NCBI GenBank assembly: GCA_947454155.1
Contig: CANGIT010000013.1
Span: forward strand, 27,495-91,494
DNA: 64,000 nucleotides
Reading direction: 5' to 3'
Source of the DNA: Chitinophagaceae bacterium
GTDB taxonomy: Bacteria; Bacteroidota; Bacteroidia; Chitinophagales; Chitinophagaceae
The translations under genes and the position numbers were made by a program. This document shows, in pieces, positions 6,460 through 30,476 of this stretch. Below the pieces are notes generated by a model, which saw only the letters and a program-made list of their open reading frames with translations, was not told the origin of the DNA and ran no database searches. Numbering within the stretch: position 1 is the stretch's first letter; each line of letters begins with the position of its first letter.

Positions 6460-6485
6460 TTTAGCACGATTTAAATCGTGCTAAA
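6460..6485. repeat. REP-like perfect palindrome, copy 1
   Basis: TTTAGCACGATTTAAATCGTGCTAAA, 26-bp perfect palindrome; core GCACGATTTAAATCGTGC. Confidence 0.9.
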
Positions 6486-6650: not shown

Positions 6651-6674
6651 ATAGCACGATTTAAATCGTGCTAT
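6651..6674. repeat. REP-like perfect palindrome, copy 2
   Basis: ATAGCACGATTTAAATCGTGCTAT, 24-bp perfect palindrome, 190 bp from copy 1. Confidence 0.9.
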
Positions 6675-8769: not shown

Positions 8770-10077
8770 CTATTGTCTGTCTTCTTCTTCATCACCATGC
8801 TGATGATATTCTCCGCGATCGTAATTATATACGCCATATCCACCGGTGAGAAAGGCCTTGTCGGCCTGATTGGAAATGTCATATCTTTTGATGCCTTCTA
8901 CCCATGTTTGTTCCACCTTGGTGTACACACTGAAGGGATCTCCGGAAAGAATGATGAAATCGGCATCTTTTCCTTTTTCCAGCGAGCCGATTCTGGTAGA
9001 GAGATCAATGAGTTTGGCTCCGGTGATGGTCAATCCTTCCAGTGCTTTTTGTCGGCTCATGCCTTCTCTCACCGAAAGTGCGGCGGTTCTTAAAAACAAA
9101 CGGGAGTCTGTAATGCCGTCATCTGTGTGAAACACCACAGGCACTCCAGCTTTTTCCAATACGGCACCTGTTTCCAAAGTGAGATTTACAGCTTCCATTT
9201 TTCCCCCTGGCGCCTCAATATTGATGATGGAACAAGCAACACCTGCCTTGGCGATTTCATCGGCTACTTTCCATCCTTCAGAGAGATGATGCAGTACAAT
9301 CCTGAATCCGAATTCTTTGGAGAGACGGATGGCCGTTAAGATGTCGTTTGATTTGTGGGTGTGAAAATGAACCACCCTTTTTCCATTCAAAACCTCTACC
9401 AATGGCTCCATACGCAAATCGCGTTCGGGCATTTTGGTGCTGTCTTTTCCGGCTTTTTCAATTTTCTTTTTGTACTCCTGCGCCTTCAAAAATAATTCTC
9501 TGACCAATGACGCACTCTTGGCTCTTGTTCCAGGGAAACCATTTCCATTTCGGATGGAGTTGGTGCCATTGGCCATTTTCAGTCCGCCATATACACCTTT
9601 TTCGTTGGTAATCAACAAGTCTTCAATGATTCTGCCCTCTCTCATCTTTAGATAAACCGTCTGTCCGCTCATCAAATGACCCGATCCCGGCATCACATTG
9701 ATAGTAGTAATTCCACCAGCCAGCGCTTTTTTAAATCCGTCGCTGGTGGGGTTGATGGCATCCAGTACCCTGGCTTCAGGGTTAATCGGATTGGATCCGT
9801 CTCCTCCCTCAGGACCTCCCAGATGGGAATGTGTATCAATAAGACCGGGCATGATTGTTTTTCCCGTCACATCTCTTAATTCTGCATCAGCCGGAATGGT
9901 CGTTTTTTCATCACCCACCACAAGAATTTTTCCGTATTGTACTATCATCACTCCTTTTGGAATGGGCATTCCATTGACCGGCAAAATTGTGGCTCCTGTA
10001 AAAACCAATGGCTTTTCCTGTGACCAGATTTTTGTGGTGGCCAACATCATCAAAACAAACAGCATTTTTCTTTTCAT
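8770..10077 (-). CDS. Amidohydrolase-family protein (imidazolonepropionase-like), secreted
   Basis: Signal peptide; MPGLIDTHSH, HFHTH, HHLSEG, FHTDDG, GSLEKGKDADF. Confidence 0.9.
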   Translation of the reverse strand: MKRKMLFVLMMLATTKIWSQEKPLVFTGATILPVNGMPIPKGVMIVQYGKILVVGDEKTTIPADAELRDVTGKTIMPGLIDTHSHLGGPEGGDGSNPINPEARVLDAINPTSDGFKKALAGGITTINVMPGSGHLMSGQTVYLKMREGRIIEDLLITNEKGVYGGLKMANGTNSIRNGNGFPGTRAKSASLVRELFLKAQEYKKKIEKAGKDSTKMPERDLRMEPLVEVLNGKRVVHFHTHKSNDILTAIRLSKEFGFRIVLHHLSEGWKVADEIAKAGVACSIINIEAPGGKMEAVNLTLETGAVLEKAGVPVVFHTDDGITDSRLFLRTAALSVREGMSRQKALEGLTITGAKLIDLSTRIGSLEKGKDADFIILSGDPFSVYTKVEQTWVEGIKRYDISNQADKAFLTGGYGVYNYDRGEYHQHGDEEEDRQ

Positions 10078-25833: not shown

Positions 25834-26889
25834 TCAGTTGAGTACTAAGATTGTCTTTTCTCCTTTTGATTTAAACGCCCCAATAGGTTCAATAAACTCT
25901 GCCAACCCGTTTGCTATGAATACATCCTGAACTTCTTTCAAGCAATCTGGATTAACACTGATAAGCAATCCACCATTGGTTTGCGGATCAGGCAGCAAAT
26001 TGAAGGCTTCCATCACATTAACTCCTTTTTCAAAACCAGTTTTTGTACTGTAGCTGTTCCAGTTTCTGTAGGTGGCATCGGGTACCACACGCTTAGCCAA
26101 ATATTCTTTTGCTCCGTCTATCACAGGAATCTTAGCATAAAATAAATCTGCTGACAGGTTGGAGCCCTCAGCTATTTCAATACAATGGCCAAGCAGGCCA
26201 AATCCGGTTACATCCGTCATTGCTGTAACGCCCTTAATTGATCCAAGGGTTTGACCAATCTTATTAAGTTTCGACATACTGTCAATCATAATCTTCTGAT
26301 GATCACTTTCCATCACTTCTCTTTTTTGTGCTGTTGACAATATGCCGACACCAATCGGTTTGGTTAACAGGAGCAGATCGCCAGCATTTGCGGTATTGTT
26401 TTTCTTAATGGCATCTGTAGCTATTACTCCGGATACCGACAATCCAAATATCGGTTCAGCAGAATCGATGCTATGGCCTCCGGCCAGGGGTATTCCGGCT
26501 TCTGCACAAATTGCACGAGCGCCGCTTAACACTTGCTGTGCCAACCCGGGGCTTAGTTTTTCAATGGGCCATCCCAGTATAGCAATGGCCATCAATGGTT
26601 TTCCGCCCATGGCATAAACATCGCTGATAGCATTTGCTGCTGCGATTCTTCCAAAATCATAGGGATCGTCAACAATAGGCATGAAGAAATCTGCTGTTGA
26701 AATTAATGCCGTTCCATTTTCCAGATCGTACACGGCGGCATCATCATTACTTTCTAATCCGATCAATAAATTTTTTATGCCCGTCGTATTCTTTTCTCCT
26801 TTCAATATCTCCTCGAGTACATTGGGGGCTATTTTGCACCCGCAACCTGCACCCTTCGAATATTGAGTCAATCTGATTTTATCTTCCAT
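25834..26889 (-). CDS. selD: Selenide, water dikinase (Cys-type)
   Basis: GAGCGCK (TGC codons), DDAAVY, TADFFMP, AANAISDVYAMGG, DVTGFGLLGH, DPQTNGGLL. Confidence 0.96.
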   Translation of the reverse strand: MEDKIRLTQYSKGAGCGCKIAPNVLEEILKGEKNTTGIKNLLIGLESNDDAAVYDLENGTALISTADFFMPIVDDPYDFGRIAAANAISDVYAMGGKPLMAIAILGWPIEKLSPGLAQQVLSGARAICAEAGIPLAGGHSIDSAEPIFGLSVSGVIATDAIKKNNTANAGDLLLLTKPIGVGILSTAQKREVMESDHQKIMIDSMSKLNKIGQTLGSIKGVTAMTDVTGFGLLGHCIEIAEGSNLSADLFYAKIPVIDGAKEYLAKRVVPDATYRNWNSYSTKTGFEKGVNVMEAFNLLPDPQTNGGLLISVNPDCLKEVQDVFIANGLAEFIEPIGAFKSKGEKTILVLN

Positions 26890-27935
26890 TATTGATTTGA
26901 TATGGTCTGTAATATTGTTATTGCATTTTTTTGAACATCAGTTGTTGATGATGTTATTTTTTTCAGCAACAGTTCAAGATTTTCTCTTTTATGCATGGAT
27001 TTGTCGTACTCACGATCATAATATCTCAAAAGCAATTCAAAGGCGGCCTTGATGTTATTGGCAGCCAAAAATGCGATGGTCATTTTTGTTTCGTTAGGTC
27101 CGAATCTTTTCTGAATACGCAACACGGCTTCTGTCAGTTTTTCTACAGGAAATACACCATATTGTTTGGTGATGAGCTCCAATCGTTCATCAAAGGGAAT
27201 GTCTATAAACAATATTTTATTTTTTCTGATGGTTGCCCACAATTGATGGGGTATATTCAGAACGCCAATGCGCTGACTTTCATCTTCCAGCCAAAATGAG
27301 TTTTTGTTTTTGTAGTAGAGCTCAAGCGCAAGTTTGTTTTCAAACATCTCCTGAGTAGGTTGTTGAGGCTGGCCCAAACCGCCAAAAGCCGATCCTTTAT
27401 GATGAGCCAATCCTTCAAGATCTATGATGGATTGACCTTTTGATTGCAGCTGAGTAAGAATTTCCGTTTTTGCGCTGCCGGTAAATCCACCCAATACATT
27501 TATTTCATAAGGCTTCGAAAATTGTTCCAACACCCAACTTCTATAGGCTTTATAACCGCCAACAAGAATAAACACGTCAAAACCATACAAATCAAGCAAC
27601 CAAGCCACTCCGGCACTTCTCATTCCACCTCGCCAACAATGTACAATAACCGATGAATTTTGTTTTTTTAATTGTTTGAGGATGAGCTCCACCTGTTCAA
27701 TGATAGGCTTCATCTTAGGTCCAAAAAAATCTAGACCTTGTTTTACAGCAAACGTTTTTCCCTTTTGCTTATAAAGTGTTCCTACTTCTGCTCTTTCTTG
27801 ATCCGAGAATAAGGGAAGAGAATGAGAGCCGGGAATATGGGCGTGAAGAAATTCGGCTGGGCTTCTTACATCAAATACCGGAGTGGTTTTCAACAGTTGG
27901 ATAAGATCCTGGGTTACGATTTTTTTAATGGCCAT
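26889..27935 (-). CDS. mnmH: tRNA 2-selenouridine synthase (SelU/YbbB)
   Basis: Rhodanese DVRSPAEF, HCWRGGMRS, GFTGSAKT, DLEGLAHHKGSAFG; 1-bp stop/start overlap with selD. Confidence 0.95.
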   Translation of the reverse strand: MAIKKIVTQDLIQLLKTTPVFDVRSPAEFLHAHIPGSHSLPLFSDQERAEVGTLYKQKGKTFAVKQGLDFFGPKMKPIIEQVELILKQLKKQNSSVIVHCWRGGMRSAGVAWLLDLYGFDVFILVGGYKAYRSWVLEQFSKPYEINVLGGFTGSAKTEILTQLQSKGQSIIDLEGLAHHKGSAFGGLGQPQQPTQEMFENKLALELYYKNKNSFWLEDESQRIGVLNIPHQLWATIRKNKILFIDIPFDERLELITKQYGVFPVEKLTEAVLRIQKRFGPNETKMTIAFLAANNIKAAFELLLRYYDREYDKSMHKRENLELLLKKITSSTTDVQKNAITILQTISNQ

Positions 27936-27969
27936 TGAAAGTTGAGTGTTCTTTCATAAAAATAGCTTT

Positions 27970-28422
27970 TTAATGGTTATCGAAATCGAAAATATTATTG
28001 AACAAATGCATGGCGGTGTATTCTTCCGTTTCTTCCTCCAAGGTTATTTTTTCGTGAACAAATTTTTGGTGCTGAATATATTTAAACACGTTTGAAACAA
28101 TGGACTCTGATACCGAATAGGCTGTATAACCGGTTTGCCAGGAGAATTTTTCATCCGTCAGATTATTATAGTTGATGAAATGGGAGGTAGATCCCTTGAT
28201 GTGTTTTACGGTTTCGGCTACAGAAACTTGAGCATTCATTAAAAAGAGACAGTGCACATGATCGCTCGAACCATTGACGATGTTGAGTGTACAGCCAATT
28301 TCATACAGTTGTTTTCGGATGTAAGCATATAGTCTTCTTTCGAGTTTTGTGGTGATAAGTTGTTTTCTGTCTTTCGTAGAGAAAATTACGTGTATCCAAA
28401 TTTTGGAAAGGGTTGCAGCCAT
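27970..28422 (-). mobile_element. tnpA: IS200/IS605-family (Y1 HUH) transposase TnpA, possibly RAYT-like; no tnpB seen
   Basis: WIHVIFSTKDR, HUH motif DHVH, WQTGY, catalytic Tyr helix KYIQHQ. Confidence 0.88.
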
Positions 28423-28466
28423 AAAAAATTGTTTAGGGTAAAAAATATTTTTTGTGTTTGTTTGTA

Positions 28467-28488
28467 TAGCACGATTTAAATCGTGCTA
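28467..28488. repeat. REP-like perfect palindrome, copy 3
   Basis: TAGCACGATTTAAATCGTGCTA, 45 bp upstream of the tnpA start. Confidence 0.9.
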
Positions 28489-28626
28489 CGGCAATAATGT
28501 TTGTGGCTGCAATTTCAATGGGGGGGATAAGATATCCAAGTTGAAAACACTGTTATCAAGGGATTATTTTCTGATCAATGCGTGATTAAAAAAACGCCTG
28601 TTTTAATTTAATTTTCGGTTTCATGG

Positions 28627-28652
28627 CTTTGCACGATTTAAATCGTGCAAAG
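28627..28652. repeat. REP-like perfect palindrome, copy 4
   Basis: CTTTGCACGATTTAAATCGTGCAAAG, 26-bp palindrome; core 162 bp from copy 3. Confidence 0.9.
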
Positions 28653-28781: not shown

Positions 28782-28807
28782 AAAAAACCCGTACAAAATT
28801 GTACGGG
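28782..28807 (-). terminator. Intrinsic terminator downstream of rho
   Basis: CCCGTACA-aaat-TGTACGGG preceded by A6 on + (U-tract on the minus strand). Confidence 0.8.
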
Positions 28808-28844: not shown

Positions 28845-30476
28845 TTAACCATTCATTGATGTCAAAAACTCGGCATTGTCTTTTGTTCCCTTCATGTTTT
28901 TCAAAAGCATGTTGATGGCTTCTTCCGGATTCATGTCTGCTATGTGCTTGCGCAATATCCACATGCGCTGGAAGGTATCTTTATCCAACAACAAATCGTC
29001 TCTTCTGGTAGAAGAGGAAACAATATCTATGGCAGGATAAATTCTTCTGTTGGAGAGTTTTCTTTCCAATTGCAATTCCATATTGCCGGTACCCTTGAAC
29101 TCTTCAAATATCACCTCGTCCATCTTGCTTCCCGTATCCACAAGGGCTGTGGCGATGATGGTAAGCGAGCCTCCGTCTTCAATTTTTCTGGCTGCACCAA
29201 AAAATTGTTTGGGCTTTTGCATGGCATTAGCTTCCACACCACCCGACAATACTTTTCCGCTTGATGGGGCAACAGTATTGTGGGCACGTGCCAATCTGGT
29301 AATCGAATCCAGCAAAATGACAACATCATGTCCGCACTCTACCAGCCTTTTGGCTTTTTGCAAAGCAATGGTGGAAACTTTTACATGCTTCTCTGCTGGC
29401 TCGTCAAAAGTTGAGGCAATCACTTCGGCCTTCACACTCCTTTCCATATCTGTAACCTCTTCCGGTCTTTCATCTACCAACACAATCATCAAATAACACT
29501 CCGGATGGTTTTCTGCAATCGCATTGGCCAGCTCTTTAAGCAACATGGTCTTACCTGTTTTAGGCTGCGCTACAATTAATCCACGCTGACCTTTACCAAT
29601 CGGCGTAAACAAATCCATGATTCTTGTGCTGAAGTTGTCTGCCTTGGTGGTGAGGTTCAGTTTTTCAAATGGAAATAATGGGGTAAGATAATCGAAAGGA
29701 ACACGGTCTCTGACTTCTTCCGGACTTTTACCGTTGATGGTTTCCACCTTCAATAAGGCAAAATACTTTTCTCCGTCTTTTGGGGGTCTTACAGATCCGT
29801 TTACAGTGTCTCCGGTTTTTAAACCAAATAATTTTATTTGAGAAGGCGATACATAAATATCATCCGGGCTGGACAAATAGTTGTAATCGCTACTTCGTAA
29901 AAAACCATATCCATCGGGCATCATTTCCAATACACCTTCTCCGGGCACAACACCGTCAAATTCTATGTTGAAGGCTGGCGGACCGTTTCTGTTATATTGT
30001 GGTTGACGAATTTCCTTGTTTATTGTTGGATTGGGTTGTTCAAGTTCTACTTCCGGCTGTTGAATATCTTCTTGTTGCAACATCTGAGCTATAGCTGCCG
30101 GAACAGTTGTCTCCTCGTCGGAAATAGGCTGAATTTCCTCATCCATTGGAGCCGCTTCTGTGCGCTGTTTTCTGGCCATCACCTTTTTAGGCTTGGGTGT
30201 CGCAGACACTTCACTTTTCTCTTCTTCTTCTTCTTTTTTCTCAGGAAAAAGTGTTTCGCCGGATTTTTCTGTTTCTGACGCCTTGGGAATTCTTTTTCTT
30301 TTTGGTTTCTCTCCCTCAGGTGTGGTTTTATCTTTTGCCATGGCCTGTTGTTTTTCCAGAATCTTTTGAATAAGATCTTCTCTGGATATTTTTTTTGTGT
30401 TGGTGATTTTCAGCTGATCTGCAATATCAAGTAGCTCTGGAATGAGCAACTCATTCAGCTGTGATTGTTCATACAT
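28845..30476 (-). CDS. rho: Transcription termination factor Rho with N-terminal disordered insertion
   Basis: [40 protein letters not shown]. Confidence 0.97.

What the first reader, a model, noticed from the sequence alone, without database searches (positions are those of the whole stretch)
27970..28652. Lone HUH transposase with its own palindrome doublet: candidate Bacteroidota REP/RAYT-like system
Seen: a 150-aa Y1 transposase with intact DHVH and KYIQHQ and no tnpB. Two GCACGATTTAAATCGTGC palindromes lie on its 5' side (28467, 28627), none on its 3' side, and identical cores occur in trans at 6.46-6.67 kb. Known: IS200/IS605 TnpA recognises subterminal hairpins at both element ends, whereas domesticated RAYTs stay single-copy and mobilise REP doublets. 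Inference: a domesticated transposase with a perfect-palindrome REP family. The classic GTAG 5' foot is absent (TTAG/ATAG/TTTG instead), which may mean a distinct class.
Basis: partly seen in the sequence, partly recalled or inferred. Interest (0 to 1): 0.7.

Follow-up and report, generated by a model that had tools for sequence, protein, structure and literature searches.

The report
Tamed hairpin-cutting transposase with its palindromes
A small IS200-like "transposase" gene has sat in one chromosomal slot long enough to diverge like its housekeeping neighbours, and it has kept a DNA hairpin beside it that has been copied a few times in this genome; this is a low-copy relative of the REP/RAYT systems, in a protein subclass reported to have no such repeats.

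Summary
A 150-aa HUH/Y1 gene (27970-28422, minus) has two perfect palindromes on its 5' side and none on its 3' side. The same 18-bp core occurs twice at 6.46-6.67 kb.

The 18-mer has only 4 exact copies in the 2.92-Mb genome. It belongs to about 22 hairpins that share an ATTTAAAT apex and have covarying stems.

The protein is not a class-2 RAYT and not a classical IS200. By motifs and tree it is TnpAY1 subclass 1.2 of Quentin et al. 2018, which was described as low-copy, not IS-like and without REPs.

New here:
- Orthologues (70-72% aa) occupy the same rho-tnpA-selU-selD slot, while at least 17 genus relatives have rho next to selU with no tnpA.
- dN/dS is 0.05-0.08.
- Every orthologue keeps one CCACGATT-TAC-AATCGTGG hairpin 5' of the gene.
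- This lineage's derived perfect form is shared by all four copies, two of them 22 kb away.
- Related TnpAs in other orders carry the same hairpin type.

Best reading (0.6): an immobile, selected Y1 ssDNA endonuclease whose cognate hairpin is occasionally copied, i.e. REPtron-like but low-copy and without GTAG. Binding and cleavage are untested.

The scan has noted hairpin-bracketed subclass-1.2 genes before on other genomes (e1-2795273, e1-938355, e1-1447413, e1-3767877). Interest is moderate.

The parts
27970..28422 (-). tnpA: 150-aa HUH/Y1 single-strand DNA endonuclease of TnpAY1 subclass 1.2. Key residues: D54-H55-V56-H57, W95-Q96, Y115, Q119, H123.
   Evidence: ORF. Pfam Y1_Tnp 4.5e-25. 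NCBIfam IS200 64.7 bits. Invariant residues in a 43-sequence alignment. AF2 model pLDDT 84, with best PDB matches ISDra2/IS608 TnpA at E 1e-9 and RAYT 4er8 at 4e-6. dN/dS 0.05-0.08 against orthologues.
28627..28652 (.). Distal 26-bp perfect palindrome CTTTGCACGATTTAAATCGTGCAAAG. This is the ancestral cognate hairpin, orthologous to the single hairpin of the relatives. AGTGAA follows it on the + strand.
   Evidence: It aligns with the CCACGATT-TAC-AATCGTGG hairpin of L059/L061/L062. ssDNA fold -12.9 kcal/mol, z -6.2. Flank motif.
28467..28488 (.). Proximal 22-bp perfect palindrome TAGCACGATTTAAATCGTGCTA, 45 bp 5' of the tnpA ATG. It is a lineage-specific extra copy.
   Evidence: It lies in the ~135-nt segment that is absent from the orthologous spacers. 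ssDNA fold -9 kcal/mol, z -4.5.
28489..28626 (.). Unique 138-bp spacer between the two palindromes. It has no homology to the interiors of the other doublets or to anything else in the genome.
   Evidence: The own spacer is 422 bp long, against 279-324 bp in the orthologues.
6460..6485 (.). Remote copy 1 of the same derived palindrome (TTTAGCACGATTTAAATCGTGCTAAA, 26 bp), in the gap between a DUF3817 gene and a scramblase-like gene.
   Evidence: ssDNA fold z -5.5.
6651..6674 (.). Remote copy 2 (ATAGCACGATTTAAATCGTGCTAT, 24 bp), 190 bp from copy 1.
   Evidence: ssDNA fold z -5.3.
27936..27956 (-). Weak small hairpin TGAAAG-N9-CTTTCA that abuts the selU start codon. Orthologues have TTGAAGT...ACTTCAA at the same place. 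It may be a regulatory or 3'-end hairpin; this is uncertain.
   Evidence: z only -2.7.
28788..28807 (-). Intrinsic terminator of rho (CCCGTACAAAATTGTACGGG followed by a T run on the minus strand). Because of it, the palindromes are not needed to end rho transcription.
   Evidence: Conserved as AGCCCGCTC...GAGCGGGCT in the orthologues.
28845..30476 (-). rho, the upstream neighbour (context).
   Evidence: Rho domains in the orthologous loci. 85-86% identity to the orthologues.
25834..27935 (-). selU (26889-27935) and selD (25834-26889), the downstream neighbours on the same strand. There are 34 bp between the tnpA stop and the selU start (context).

Best explanation
This is an immobile, host-retained IS200-related Y1 (HUH) single-strand DNA endonuclease of TnpAY1 subclass 1.2, together with its cognate DNA hairpin.

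History inferred from the comparisons: an ancestor of this small lineage acquired the gene once, in the rho-selU spacer. Since then the gene has been inherited vertically under strong purifying selection, together with one hairpin (stem ...CCACGATT / AATCGTGG...) about 70-85 nt 5' of the start codon. In this genome the hairpin loop lost one base, which made the palindrome perfect. One stem pair also flipped. That derived form was then copied: once 162 bp away at the tnpA locus, and twice at a site 22 kb away.

Proposed mechanism (inferred from the solved ISDra2/IS608/RAYT enzymes, not tested here): a TnpA dimer binds the hairpin when the palindrome is extruded in single-stranded DNA, for example on the lagging-strand template. 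It cuts beside the hairpin using the H55/H57-bound metal and Y115, which forms a 5'-phosphotyrosine link. It then rejoins the strand at another site. The result would be rare copying of hairpin modules, as in REP/RAYT 'REPtrons', but at very low copy number and without the GTAG foot.

The hairpins themselves may also serve the host as terminators or mRNA-end structures.
For: Protein:
- Pfam Y1_Tnp and an intact HUH/Y.
- The fold matches hairpin-bound ISDra2/IS608 TnpA.

Single copy and immobile:
- The only other Y1 genes in the genome are 45% and 38% identical paralogues plus a weak class-2 hit.
- No TnpB was found.
- There is no room for a 3' end: 34 bp separate the tnpA stop from selU.

Vertical inheritance:
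- Four metagenomic contigs carry 70-72% orthologues in the same rho-tnpA-selU-selD order.
- TnpA identity (70-72%) is about the same as selD (70-74%) and higher than selU (62-67%).
- At least 17 other genus members have rho directly beside selU.
- dN/dS is 0.05-0.08 with saturated dS.

Cognate hairpin:
- Every orthologue has one 12-bp-stem hairpin with the same inner stem. The outer stem covaries (AACC/GGTT, ATCC/GGAT, TTTG/CAAA).
- Members of the same TnpA clade in Flavobacteriales, a Neomarinimicrobiota MAG, Hanamia and others are flanked by CCCACGATT..AATCGTGGG, CCCACGGTTTAAACCGTGGG or AGCCCACCATTTAAATGGTGGGCT. Other TnpA clades carry other hairpins.
- A hairpin with a stem of at least 8 bp lies within 250 bp 5' of the gene in 21 of 34 loci, against a background of 0.53 per kb. 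P is about 4e-8 after collapsing related loci.

Copying in trans:
- All four GCACG copies share the lineage-specific derived state (loop TAC to TA, and an outer C-G pair flipped to G-C). Two of them are 22 kb from tnpA.

Structure selection:
- Across about 22 ATTTAAAT-apex hairpins, both arms change together (CACG, CACC, CGTG, CGCC) and stem length is bimodal (0-4 versus 7-12 extra pairs).
Against: - No binding, cleavage or mobility was shown.
- Copy number is tiny for a REP family: 4 exact copies and about 22 related. About 10 of the related ones (the AGCCCACC subfamily) sit roughly 35 bp after stop codons or between convergent genes, so they could simply be terminators.
- That subfamily, and the C19/C8 copies, may belong to the C4 paralogue rather than to this gene.
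- In relatives, most copies stay right next to tnpA: G004 2 of 2, Hanamia 4 of 4, G029 2 of 3. That pattern also fits plain element ends.
- The doublet interiors share no sequence, so no defined mobile unit could be delimited.
- No empty site could be found for the 6.46-6.67 kb doublet.
- Sharing of the derived state by 4 copies could also arise by gene conversion.
Confidence: 0.6

Rival explanations
1. One-ended, stranded IS200-type insertion. The gene is what remains of an IS that lost its right end when it landed in front of selU. The 5' palindrome would be the old left-end hairpin, which now acts mainly as a transcriptional insulator or terminator, or as an autoregulatory site, as in the IS200 left end. 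The other palindromes in the genome would be relics or unrelated. TnpA would have no present DNA-processing role on dispersed hairpins.
For: - By sequence and fold the protein is nearer to IS200/IS605 TnpAs than to RAYT.
- In relatives the typical unit is hairpin-tnpA-hairpin of about 550 bp, with few or no extra copies.
- The distal palindrome scores as terminator-like.
- According to PMC8266576, IS200 and IS1541-type elements have perfect palindromic ends.
Against: - A dead-end IS should decay. Instead the ORF and catalytic residues persist with dN/dS 0.05-0.08 across a divergence as deep as that of selD.
- In the tree, subclass-1.1 IS transposases with TnpB form a separate long-branched clade.
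- The derived hairpin form occurs at a second locus 22 kb away.
- rho has its own terminator, so an insulator is not obviously needed.
Confidence: 0.2
2. The palindromes are host regulatory structures, such as bidirectional intrinsic terminators, mRNA 3'-end stabilisers or a dimeric protein's operator. They spread or are maintained independently of TnpA, and their presence next to tnpA is incidental.
For: - The AGCCCACC subfamily lies about 35 bp after stop codons, mostly between convergent genes, with A/T runs on both sides.
- The doublets on C19, C12 and C8 also sit between convergent genes.
- All copies are intergenic.
Against: - The hairpin is kept 5' of tnpA in all orthologues, and the same hairpin type follows this TnpA clade across orders, while other clades have other hairpins.
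- Strictly symmetric arm changes argue for base-pairing rather than a protein operator.
- Most doublet members lack a T tract, and the tnpA-proximal copies lie upstream of a gene rather than downstream.
- There is no Rfam match.
Confidence: 0.12
3. A still-active autonomous IS200/IS605-family insertion sequence.
For: NCBIfam places it above the IS200 equivalog cut-off.
Against: - It is single copy and has no second end. The same slot is occupied in diverged relatives, and divergence is similar to that of the neighbours.
- No near-identical copies exist in 5.8 billion proteins; the best non-self hit is 72%.
Confidence: 0.03

Closest known systems
TnpAY1 subclass 1.2 (Quentin, Siguier, Chandler, Fichant 2018, PMC6006769)
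   Same: - About 148 aa.
- DH[IV]H, WQ and Y---Q--(H)H motifs, plus a short conserved C-terminal tail.
- Bacteroidota/Cyanobacteria distribution.
- Low copy number with divergent paralogues in one genome.
- No IS behaviour.
   Different: [quoted passage not shown] Its REP finder required GTAG/GTGG 0-2 nt from the hairpin.

Here the gene and its homologues are flanked by long hairpins, and low-copy dispersed copies exist. The orthologue group also has a slightly derived Y motif (YIQ[HD]QK[FY]VH: one His, not two), and the relatives have NH[VI]H.
REPtron / RAYT-REP(IN) systems (E. coli RayT, PDB 4ER8; group 2 and 3 RAYTs; PMC3333891, PMC8266576, PMC5581495)
   Same: - A single-copy, vertically inherited, housekeeping-like Y1 gene.
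- A cognate palindrome next to the gene and also elsewhere in the genome.
- Enzyme clade and hairpin type vary together.
- Perfect palindromes also occur in group-3 REPs.
   Different: - The protein is class 1 (Y---Q), not class 2 (Y---NP).
- There is no GTAG/GTGG foot.
- There are 4-22 copies instead of hundreds.
- Both local copies lie on the 5' side, rather than bracketing the gene as REP/iREP.
- Doublets are 160-190 bp apart with unique interiors, unlike REPINs or BIMEs.
IS200 / IS1541 (IS200/IS605 family, subclass 1.1)
   Same: - Closest solved folds and HMM.
- A tnpA-only unit of about 150 aa.
- A perfect palindromic hairpin 5' of tnpA, as in the IS200 left end.
   Different: - It is not multi-copy.
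- It has no right end.
- It is syntenic across diverged relatives.
- In the tree, TnpB-associated IS transposases form a separate clade.
Earlier notes of this scan on other genomes (e1-2795273, e1-938355, e1-1447413, e1-3767877)
   Same: Single-copy subclass-1.2 genes bracketed by hairpin modules in Bacteroidota, with the same remark that the defining paper reported no repeats.
   Different: Those are other genomes with other hairpin modules. They are AI notes that I did not re-test. This locus adds orthologous synteny, empty sites, dN/dS and a derived-state argument for copying in trans.

Membership tests
HUH / Y1 transposase superfamily (Pfam PF01797) | HUH metal-binding motif and a single catalytic Tyr on the C-terminal helix; ferredoxin-like fold | tested here: met
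   Pfam E 4.5e-25. H55, H57 and Y115 are invariant in 43 homologues. The AF2 model (pLDDT 84) matches ISDra2/IS608 TnpA at E 1e-9, TM 0.64-0.75.
TnpAY1 subclass 1.2 (PMC6006769) | Y motif Y---Q--HH, WQ motif, DH[IV]H, length about 148 aa, specific C-terminal tail | tested here: met
   DHVH, WQ, YIQHQKFVH (Y---Q---H, with the second His only), 150 aa. The homologues show YIKNQKxHH. I judged this by motifs and by the tree, not with the authors' own HMMs.
TnpAY1 subclass 1.2 (PMC6006769) | Low intragenomic copy number with divergent paralogues; no IS behaviour | tested here: met
   Paralogues are 45% and 38% identical. The orthologues are syntenic.
RAYT / TnpA-REP (class 2) | Class-2 Y motif Y---NP and class-2 core | tested here: not met
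   The Y motif is YIQHQ. E. coli RayT sits on a very long separate branch, is not found by phmmer against the PDB, and is a weaker fold match than the IS TnpAs.
RAYT / TnpA-REP (REPtron) | Single copy, vertically inherited, housekeeping-like behaviour | tested here: met
RAYT / TnpA-REP (REPtron) | Gene bracketed by cognate REPs in inverted orientation | tested here: not met
   Both palindromes are 5' of the gene and none is 3'. Several homologues in other genomes are bracketed (L004, L006, L008, L064, L067).
RAYT / TnpA-REP (REPtron) | Cognate palindromes dispersed genome-wide at high copy number | tested here: not met
   4 exact copies at two loci, and about 22 related hairpins. Relatives have 2-8.
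RAYT / TnpA-REP (REPtron) | Conserved GTAG/GTGG tetranucleotide at the 5' foot | tested here: not met
   None is present. The flanking bases extend the stem. AG[TC][GT]AA follows 7 of 12 related hairpins.
RAYT / TnpA-REP (REPtron) | Enzyme cleaves and joins its cognate single-stranded REP | not testable with these tools
   This needs purified protein and hairpin oligonucleotides.
IS200/IS605 insertion sequence (subclass 1.1) | Two subterminal hairpin ends around tnpA (with or without tnpB), multiple near-identical copies, patchy distribution | tested here: not met
   There is no 3' end and no tnpB. There are no near-identical copies. The position is fixed in relatives. It falls in a separate tree clade from TnpB-linked TnpAs.

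The most novel reading that the evidence does not exclude
Subclass-1.2 TnpAs would be a second, independent domestication of IS200-type transposases, parallel to the class-2 RAYTs. Each paralogue would maintain its own small family of hairpins that the host uses as terminators or regulatory ends.

This one genome would then run three or four such enzyme-hairpin pairs side by side:
- the C13 gene with GCACG/ATTTAAAT hairpins;
- the C4 Tyr-to-Phe paralogue with CCACC hairpins;
- the C1 gene with about 65 GTAG-footed hairpins;
- a class-2 RAYT on C20.

That would make it a natural system for asking how specificity between enzyme and hairpin evolves.
Probability: 0.3. Interest if true: 0.65.

Novelty: new variant of a known kind. 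Interest (0 to 1): 0.45.

Why it matters
REP/RAYT systems are the textbook case of a domesticated bacterial transposase, but they are known almost only from class-2 enzymes in Proteobacteria with GTAG-footed, high-copy repeats.

This locus is a clean, datable example from a different branch, the IS200-related subclass 1.2 of Bacteroidota. The evidence consists of one ancient insertion, empty sites in relatives, strong purifying selection, a co-inherited hairpin, and a few recent copies. It suggests that the paper defining the subclass missed its partner hairpins because its search required GTAG.

Low copy number also makes it a tractable system for seeing individual copying events.

The limits are clear. 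No biochemistry was done. The same general pattern has already been noted by this scan on other genomes. The protein subclass itself is published.

Tried and rejected
- MITE/PATE idea for the doublets: the interiors of the five doublets or triplets share no sequence with each other or with anything else in the genome. The repeat unit is therefore the hairpin with a few flanking bases, not a composite element.
- Degraded hairpin-tnpA-hairpin units: doublet spacing (160-190 bp) is far shorter than intact units (about 550 bp), and no tnpA remnants were seen.
- Empty-site test for the 6.46-6.67 kb doublet: the closest homologues of the neighbouring scramblase-like gene (78% and 74%) are not syntenic, so there was no result.
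- Counting hairpins in orthologue-bearing genomes: the orthologues exist only as metagenomic contigs, and GTDB representative genomes hold nothing closer than 52%.
- Rfam: only sub-threshold chance matches.
- Sigma-70-type promoter scan: not above shuffles, and not suited to Bacteroidota promoters.
- Dimeric transcription-factor operator: rejected because both arms always change together.
- The 'C4 pseudogene' impression was wrong. The stops lie beyond the natural end of a 133-aa ORF of the same length as its closest homologue, but the ORF carries Phe at the catalytic Tyr position.

Full report
**What is there.** The minus-strand ORF 27970-28422 encodes a 150-aa protein. It matches Pfam Y1_Tnp (E 4.5e-25) and passes NCBIfam's IS200 model (64.7 bits against a cut-off of 55). 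It lies between rho (28845-30476) and selU-selD (25834-27935), all on the same strand, and only 34 bp separate its stop codon from the selU start. The 18-mer GCACGATTTAAATCGTGC occurs four times in the window, at 6464, 6654, 28469 and 28631, with none expected by chance. Each copy extends into a longer perfect palindrome: 6460-6485, 6651-6674, 28467-28488 and 28627-28652. As single-stranded DNA they fold at -9 to -13 kcal/mol, with z-scores of -4.5 to -6.2.

**Copy numbers in the whole genome.** The genome is 2.92 Mb in 32 contigs and 100% complete.
- These four are the only exact copies. Two compensatory variants (GCACCATTTAAATGGTGC) form a third doublet on contig C19.
- Of the 129 ATTTAAAT sites in the genome, 22 are the apex of a palindrome with 7-12 further perfect pairs, whereas all the others have 0-4.
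- The stems fall into subfamilies CACG (4 copies), CACC (12), CGTG (4) and CGCC (2). Both arms always change together, which indicates selection for, or generation by, base-pairing.
- A looser hairpin class is otherwise at shuffle level.
- All copies are intergenic.
- The AGCCCACC...GGTGGGCT subfamily sits about 35 bp after stop codons, mostly between convergent genes, and looks terminator-like.
- The others tend to occur as doublets 160-190 bp apart (C13 twice, C19, C12), as a triplet (C8), or 2.8 kb apart around three genes.
- The doublet interiors are unique sequence.
- Seven of the 12 non-AGCCCACC copies are followed on one strand by AG[TC][GT]AA. None of the 10 AGCCCACC copies is.

**What the protein is.** The alignment with 42 homologues (44-71% identity) shows invariant H55, H57, W95, Q96, Y115, Q119 and H123. 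The motifs DHVH, WQ and YIQHQKFVH, the length, and the short acidic/aromatic tail match TnpAY1 subclass 1.2 of Quentin et al. 2018 (DH[IV]H, WQ, YIKNQKEHH, median 148 aa). That subclass is reported from Cyanobacteria and Bacteroidetes, with a low copy number and 36% mean identity between copies. The paper states that it 'does not share IS properties', and its table gives 'REP: no'.

In a maximum-likelihood tree, four TnpAs from bona fide IS200/IS605 elements, three of them next to TnpB, form a separate clade on a long branch (support 100/88). E. coli RayT is far outside. The long branches make the deep topology unsafe, but the separation from both reference groups is clear.

phmmer against the PDB finds ISDra2 TnpA (5e-6), IS608 TnpA and Sulfolobus TnpAs, but not RayT. 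An AF2 model (pLDDT 84) matches ISDra2/IS608 TnpA-DNA complexes at E 1e-9 and RayT 4er8 at 4e-6.

The genome has no TnpB domain. It has three other Y1 genes:
- a 45%-identical 133-aa paralogue on C4, with Phe at the catalytic Tyr position;
- a 38%-identical canonical subclass-1.2 gene on C1;
- a class-2 RAYT-type ORF on C20.

**History of the locus.** The best non-self hits among 5.8 billion proteins are 70-72% identical. All that could be placed lie on contigs with the order rho-tnpA-selU-selD (L059-L062). On those contigs rho is 86% identical to ours, selD 70-74%, selU 62-67% and TnpA 70-72%, so TnpA has diverged in step with its neighbours. In at least 17 other species of the same GTDB genus, rho lies directly beside selU with a 100-190 bp gap and no tnpA. 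The gene therefore entered this slot once and has been inherited vertically since. Nei-Gojobori estimates give pN 0.07-0.18 against saturated pS 0.66-0.86, so dN/dS is about 0.05-0.08 where it can be computed. This is not a decaying insertion.

**The hairpin travels with the gene.** Each orthologous spacer contains one hairpin with a 12-bp stem and a 3-nt loop, ATA[AT]CCACGATT-TAC-AATCGTGG[AT]TAT, 68-85 bp 5' of the start codon. The spacer alignment places it opposite our distal palindrome (28627-28652). Our proximal palindrome, together with roughly 135 nt, has no counterpart. Relative to the orthologues, our copies have lost the loop C, which makes the palindrome perfect, and have one outer pair flipped (C-G to G-C). 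All four copies share both changes, including the two that are 22 kb away. The four copies therefore descend from one lineage-specific template, either by copying or, less likely, by gene conversion.

More distant members of the same TnpA clade (40-52% identity) are flanked by the same hairpin type:
- Hanamia: AGCCCACGGTTTAAACCGTGGGCT;
- a Flavobacteriales MAG: AGCCCACCATT[TA/TC/GA]AATGGTGGGCT on both sides, identical to this genome's commonest subfamily;
- a Neomarinimicrobiota MAG: CCCACGATTGAAATCGTGGG;
- an uncultured bacterium: CCCACGATTTCAATCGTGGG.

Other clades in the tree carry other hairpins, such as CCTGGCC-TGAA-GGCCAGG or short G/C hairpins.

Overall, 21 of 34 loci have a perfect hairpin with a stem of at least 8 bp within 250 bp 5' of the gene, and 13 have one within 200 bp 3'. 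The background is 0.53 per kb. After collapsing related loci the count is 16 of 28, P about 4e-8.

Copy numbers in relatives are low: 2 (both flanking the gene), 7, 3, 4 (all local) and 8.

**Interpretation.** The data fit a REPtron-like pair: a selected, immobile Y1 endonuclease and a cognate hairpin that is occasionally copied.
- Shown here: family, fold and catalytic residues; single copy; synteny; purifying selection; conservation and covariation of the hairpin; clade-specific hairpin types; and a shared derived state at a remote locus.
- Inferred from the solved ISDra2, IS608 and RayT complexes and from PMC8266576: binding of the extruded single-stranded hairpin by a dimer, cleavage beside it via Y115 and the HUH-bound metal, and strand transfer as the copying mechanism.

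I put this at 0.6. The main rival (0.2) is a stranded one-ended IS200-type unit whose hairpin now serves only as an insulator or autoregulatory site. It explains the local hairpin. It does not explain the long purifying selection or the remote copies. A purely host-regulatory origin of the palindromes (0.12) fits the terminator-like AGCCCACC subfamily, but it does not fit the linkage between TnpA clade and hairpin type. An active IS is essentially excluded.

**Comparison with what is known.** The system works like a REPtron but fails membership on four counts: the class-2 Y---NP motif, the GTAG foot, bracketing REP/iREP, and high copy number. It fails IS200/IS605 membership because it lacks a second end, multiple copies and a patchy distribution. 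It meets the published definition of subclass 1.2. What goes beyond that paper is the partner hairpin. The authors' REP finder required GTAG or GTGG within 0-2 nt of the stem, so it would have missed both these palindromes and the C1-type repeats. Perfect-palindrome REPs as such are already known for group-3 RAYTs. I found no later paper on subclass-1.2 hairpins in the searchable library, but that library is incomplete.

This scan has already recorded hairpin-bracketed subclass-1.2 genes on other genomes (e1-2795273, e1-938355, e1-1447413, e1-3767877). I did not re-test those notes, and they are not independent evidence.

**Verdict.** This is a real feature that was correctly seen. It is wrong on family (not a RAYT), on abundance (not many copies) and on the 'feet'. 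I rate it a new variant of a known kind, with interest 0.45.

One tool (look-up of sequencing runs) was closed, so no read-level test for excision was possible.

Noticed in passing
G000 contig C1:200022-200760 (outside the window), and about 23 other sites genome-wide: A canonical subclass-1.2 paralogue (YILHQEEHH, 38% identical) has, directly 5' of it, 4 direct and 2 inverted copies of a module TG.TAGAAT.ATGT-CACCCC-TTC-GGGGT. About 65 copies occur genome-wide, in about 16 arrays of 2-6 copies with a 40-57 bp period, plus singletons. It resembles REP/BIME, with a GTAG-type motif 9-10 nt from the hairpin. It is unclear whether the C1 gene or the class-2 gene on C20 drives it.
   Followed up: partly
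G000 contig C20, about 9500-10010 minus strand (outside the window): A 169-aa class-2 RAYT-type ORF (NHIH, YIHYNP; Pfam Y1_Tnp 26.3 bits) lies next to a tRNA gene and a 3 x 52-bp tandem repeat. This genome therefore holds four different Y1 genes.
   Followed up: partly
G000 contig C4:136463-136864 plus strand (outside the window): A 133-aa Y1 paralogue (45% identical) has an open frame but Phe at the catalytic Tyr position (YDF, against YDY in its closest homologue). It is probably a binding-only or dead enzyme. A degenerate CCACCGTTTAAACCATTTAAATGGTGG lies about 120 bp 5' of it.
   Followed up: partly
G000 contig C13:108799 and 111600 (outside the window): Two CGCC-type ATTTAAAT hairpins with the same GCTT...AAGTTA flanks bracket 2.8 kb holding three genes (an unknown 392-aa gene, a VWA-domain 209-aa gene, and a DUF6717 148-aa gene). 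This may be a hairpin-bounded cassette.
   Followed up: partly
window 27936-27956 (minus strand): A small hairpin abuts the selU start codon. Orthologues have a different but equally placed stem (TTGAAGT/ACTTCAA), which hints at a conserved structure over the selU ribosome-binding region.
   Followed up: partly
G000 contig C8:20673-20890 and C12:27465-27499: Three degenerate CACCATTTAAATGGTGG hairpins sit in tandem units of about 105 bp between convergent genes, and a related unit fragment lies on C12.
   Followed up: no
G000 contig C4:90887/91050 and C4:96426-96606: There are other unrelated palindrome doublets: GGTCGCAAATTGCGACC 163 bp apart, and nested pairs CCCTTCGAATTATCGAAGGG / TTGGTGTTAACACCAA. 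I did not examine them.
   Followed up: no
L064 (Flavobacteriales MAG contig CANHPZ010000006.1), around its tnpA: This tnpA is flanked on each side by the same two-hairpin module (hairpins 93 nt apart, with 18-nt identical flanks including ATGAAGTGAAG). That makes a direct repeat of a doublet around the gene, and the hairpin is identical to this genome's AGCCCACC subfamily.
   Followed up: partly
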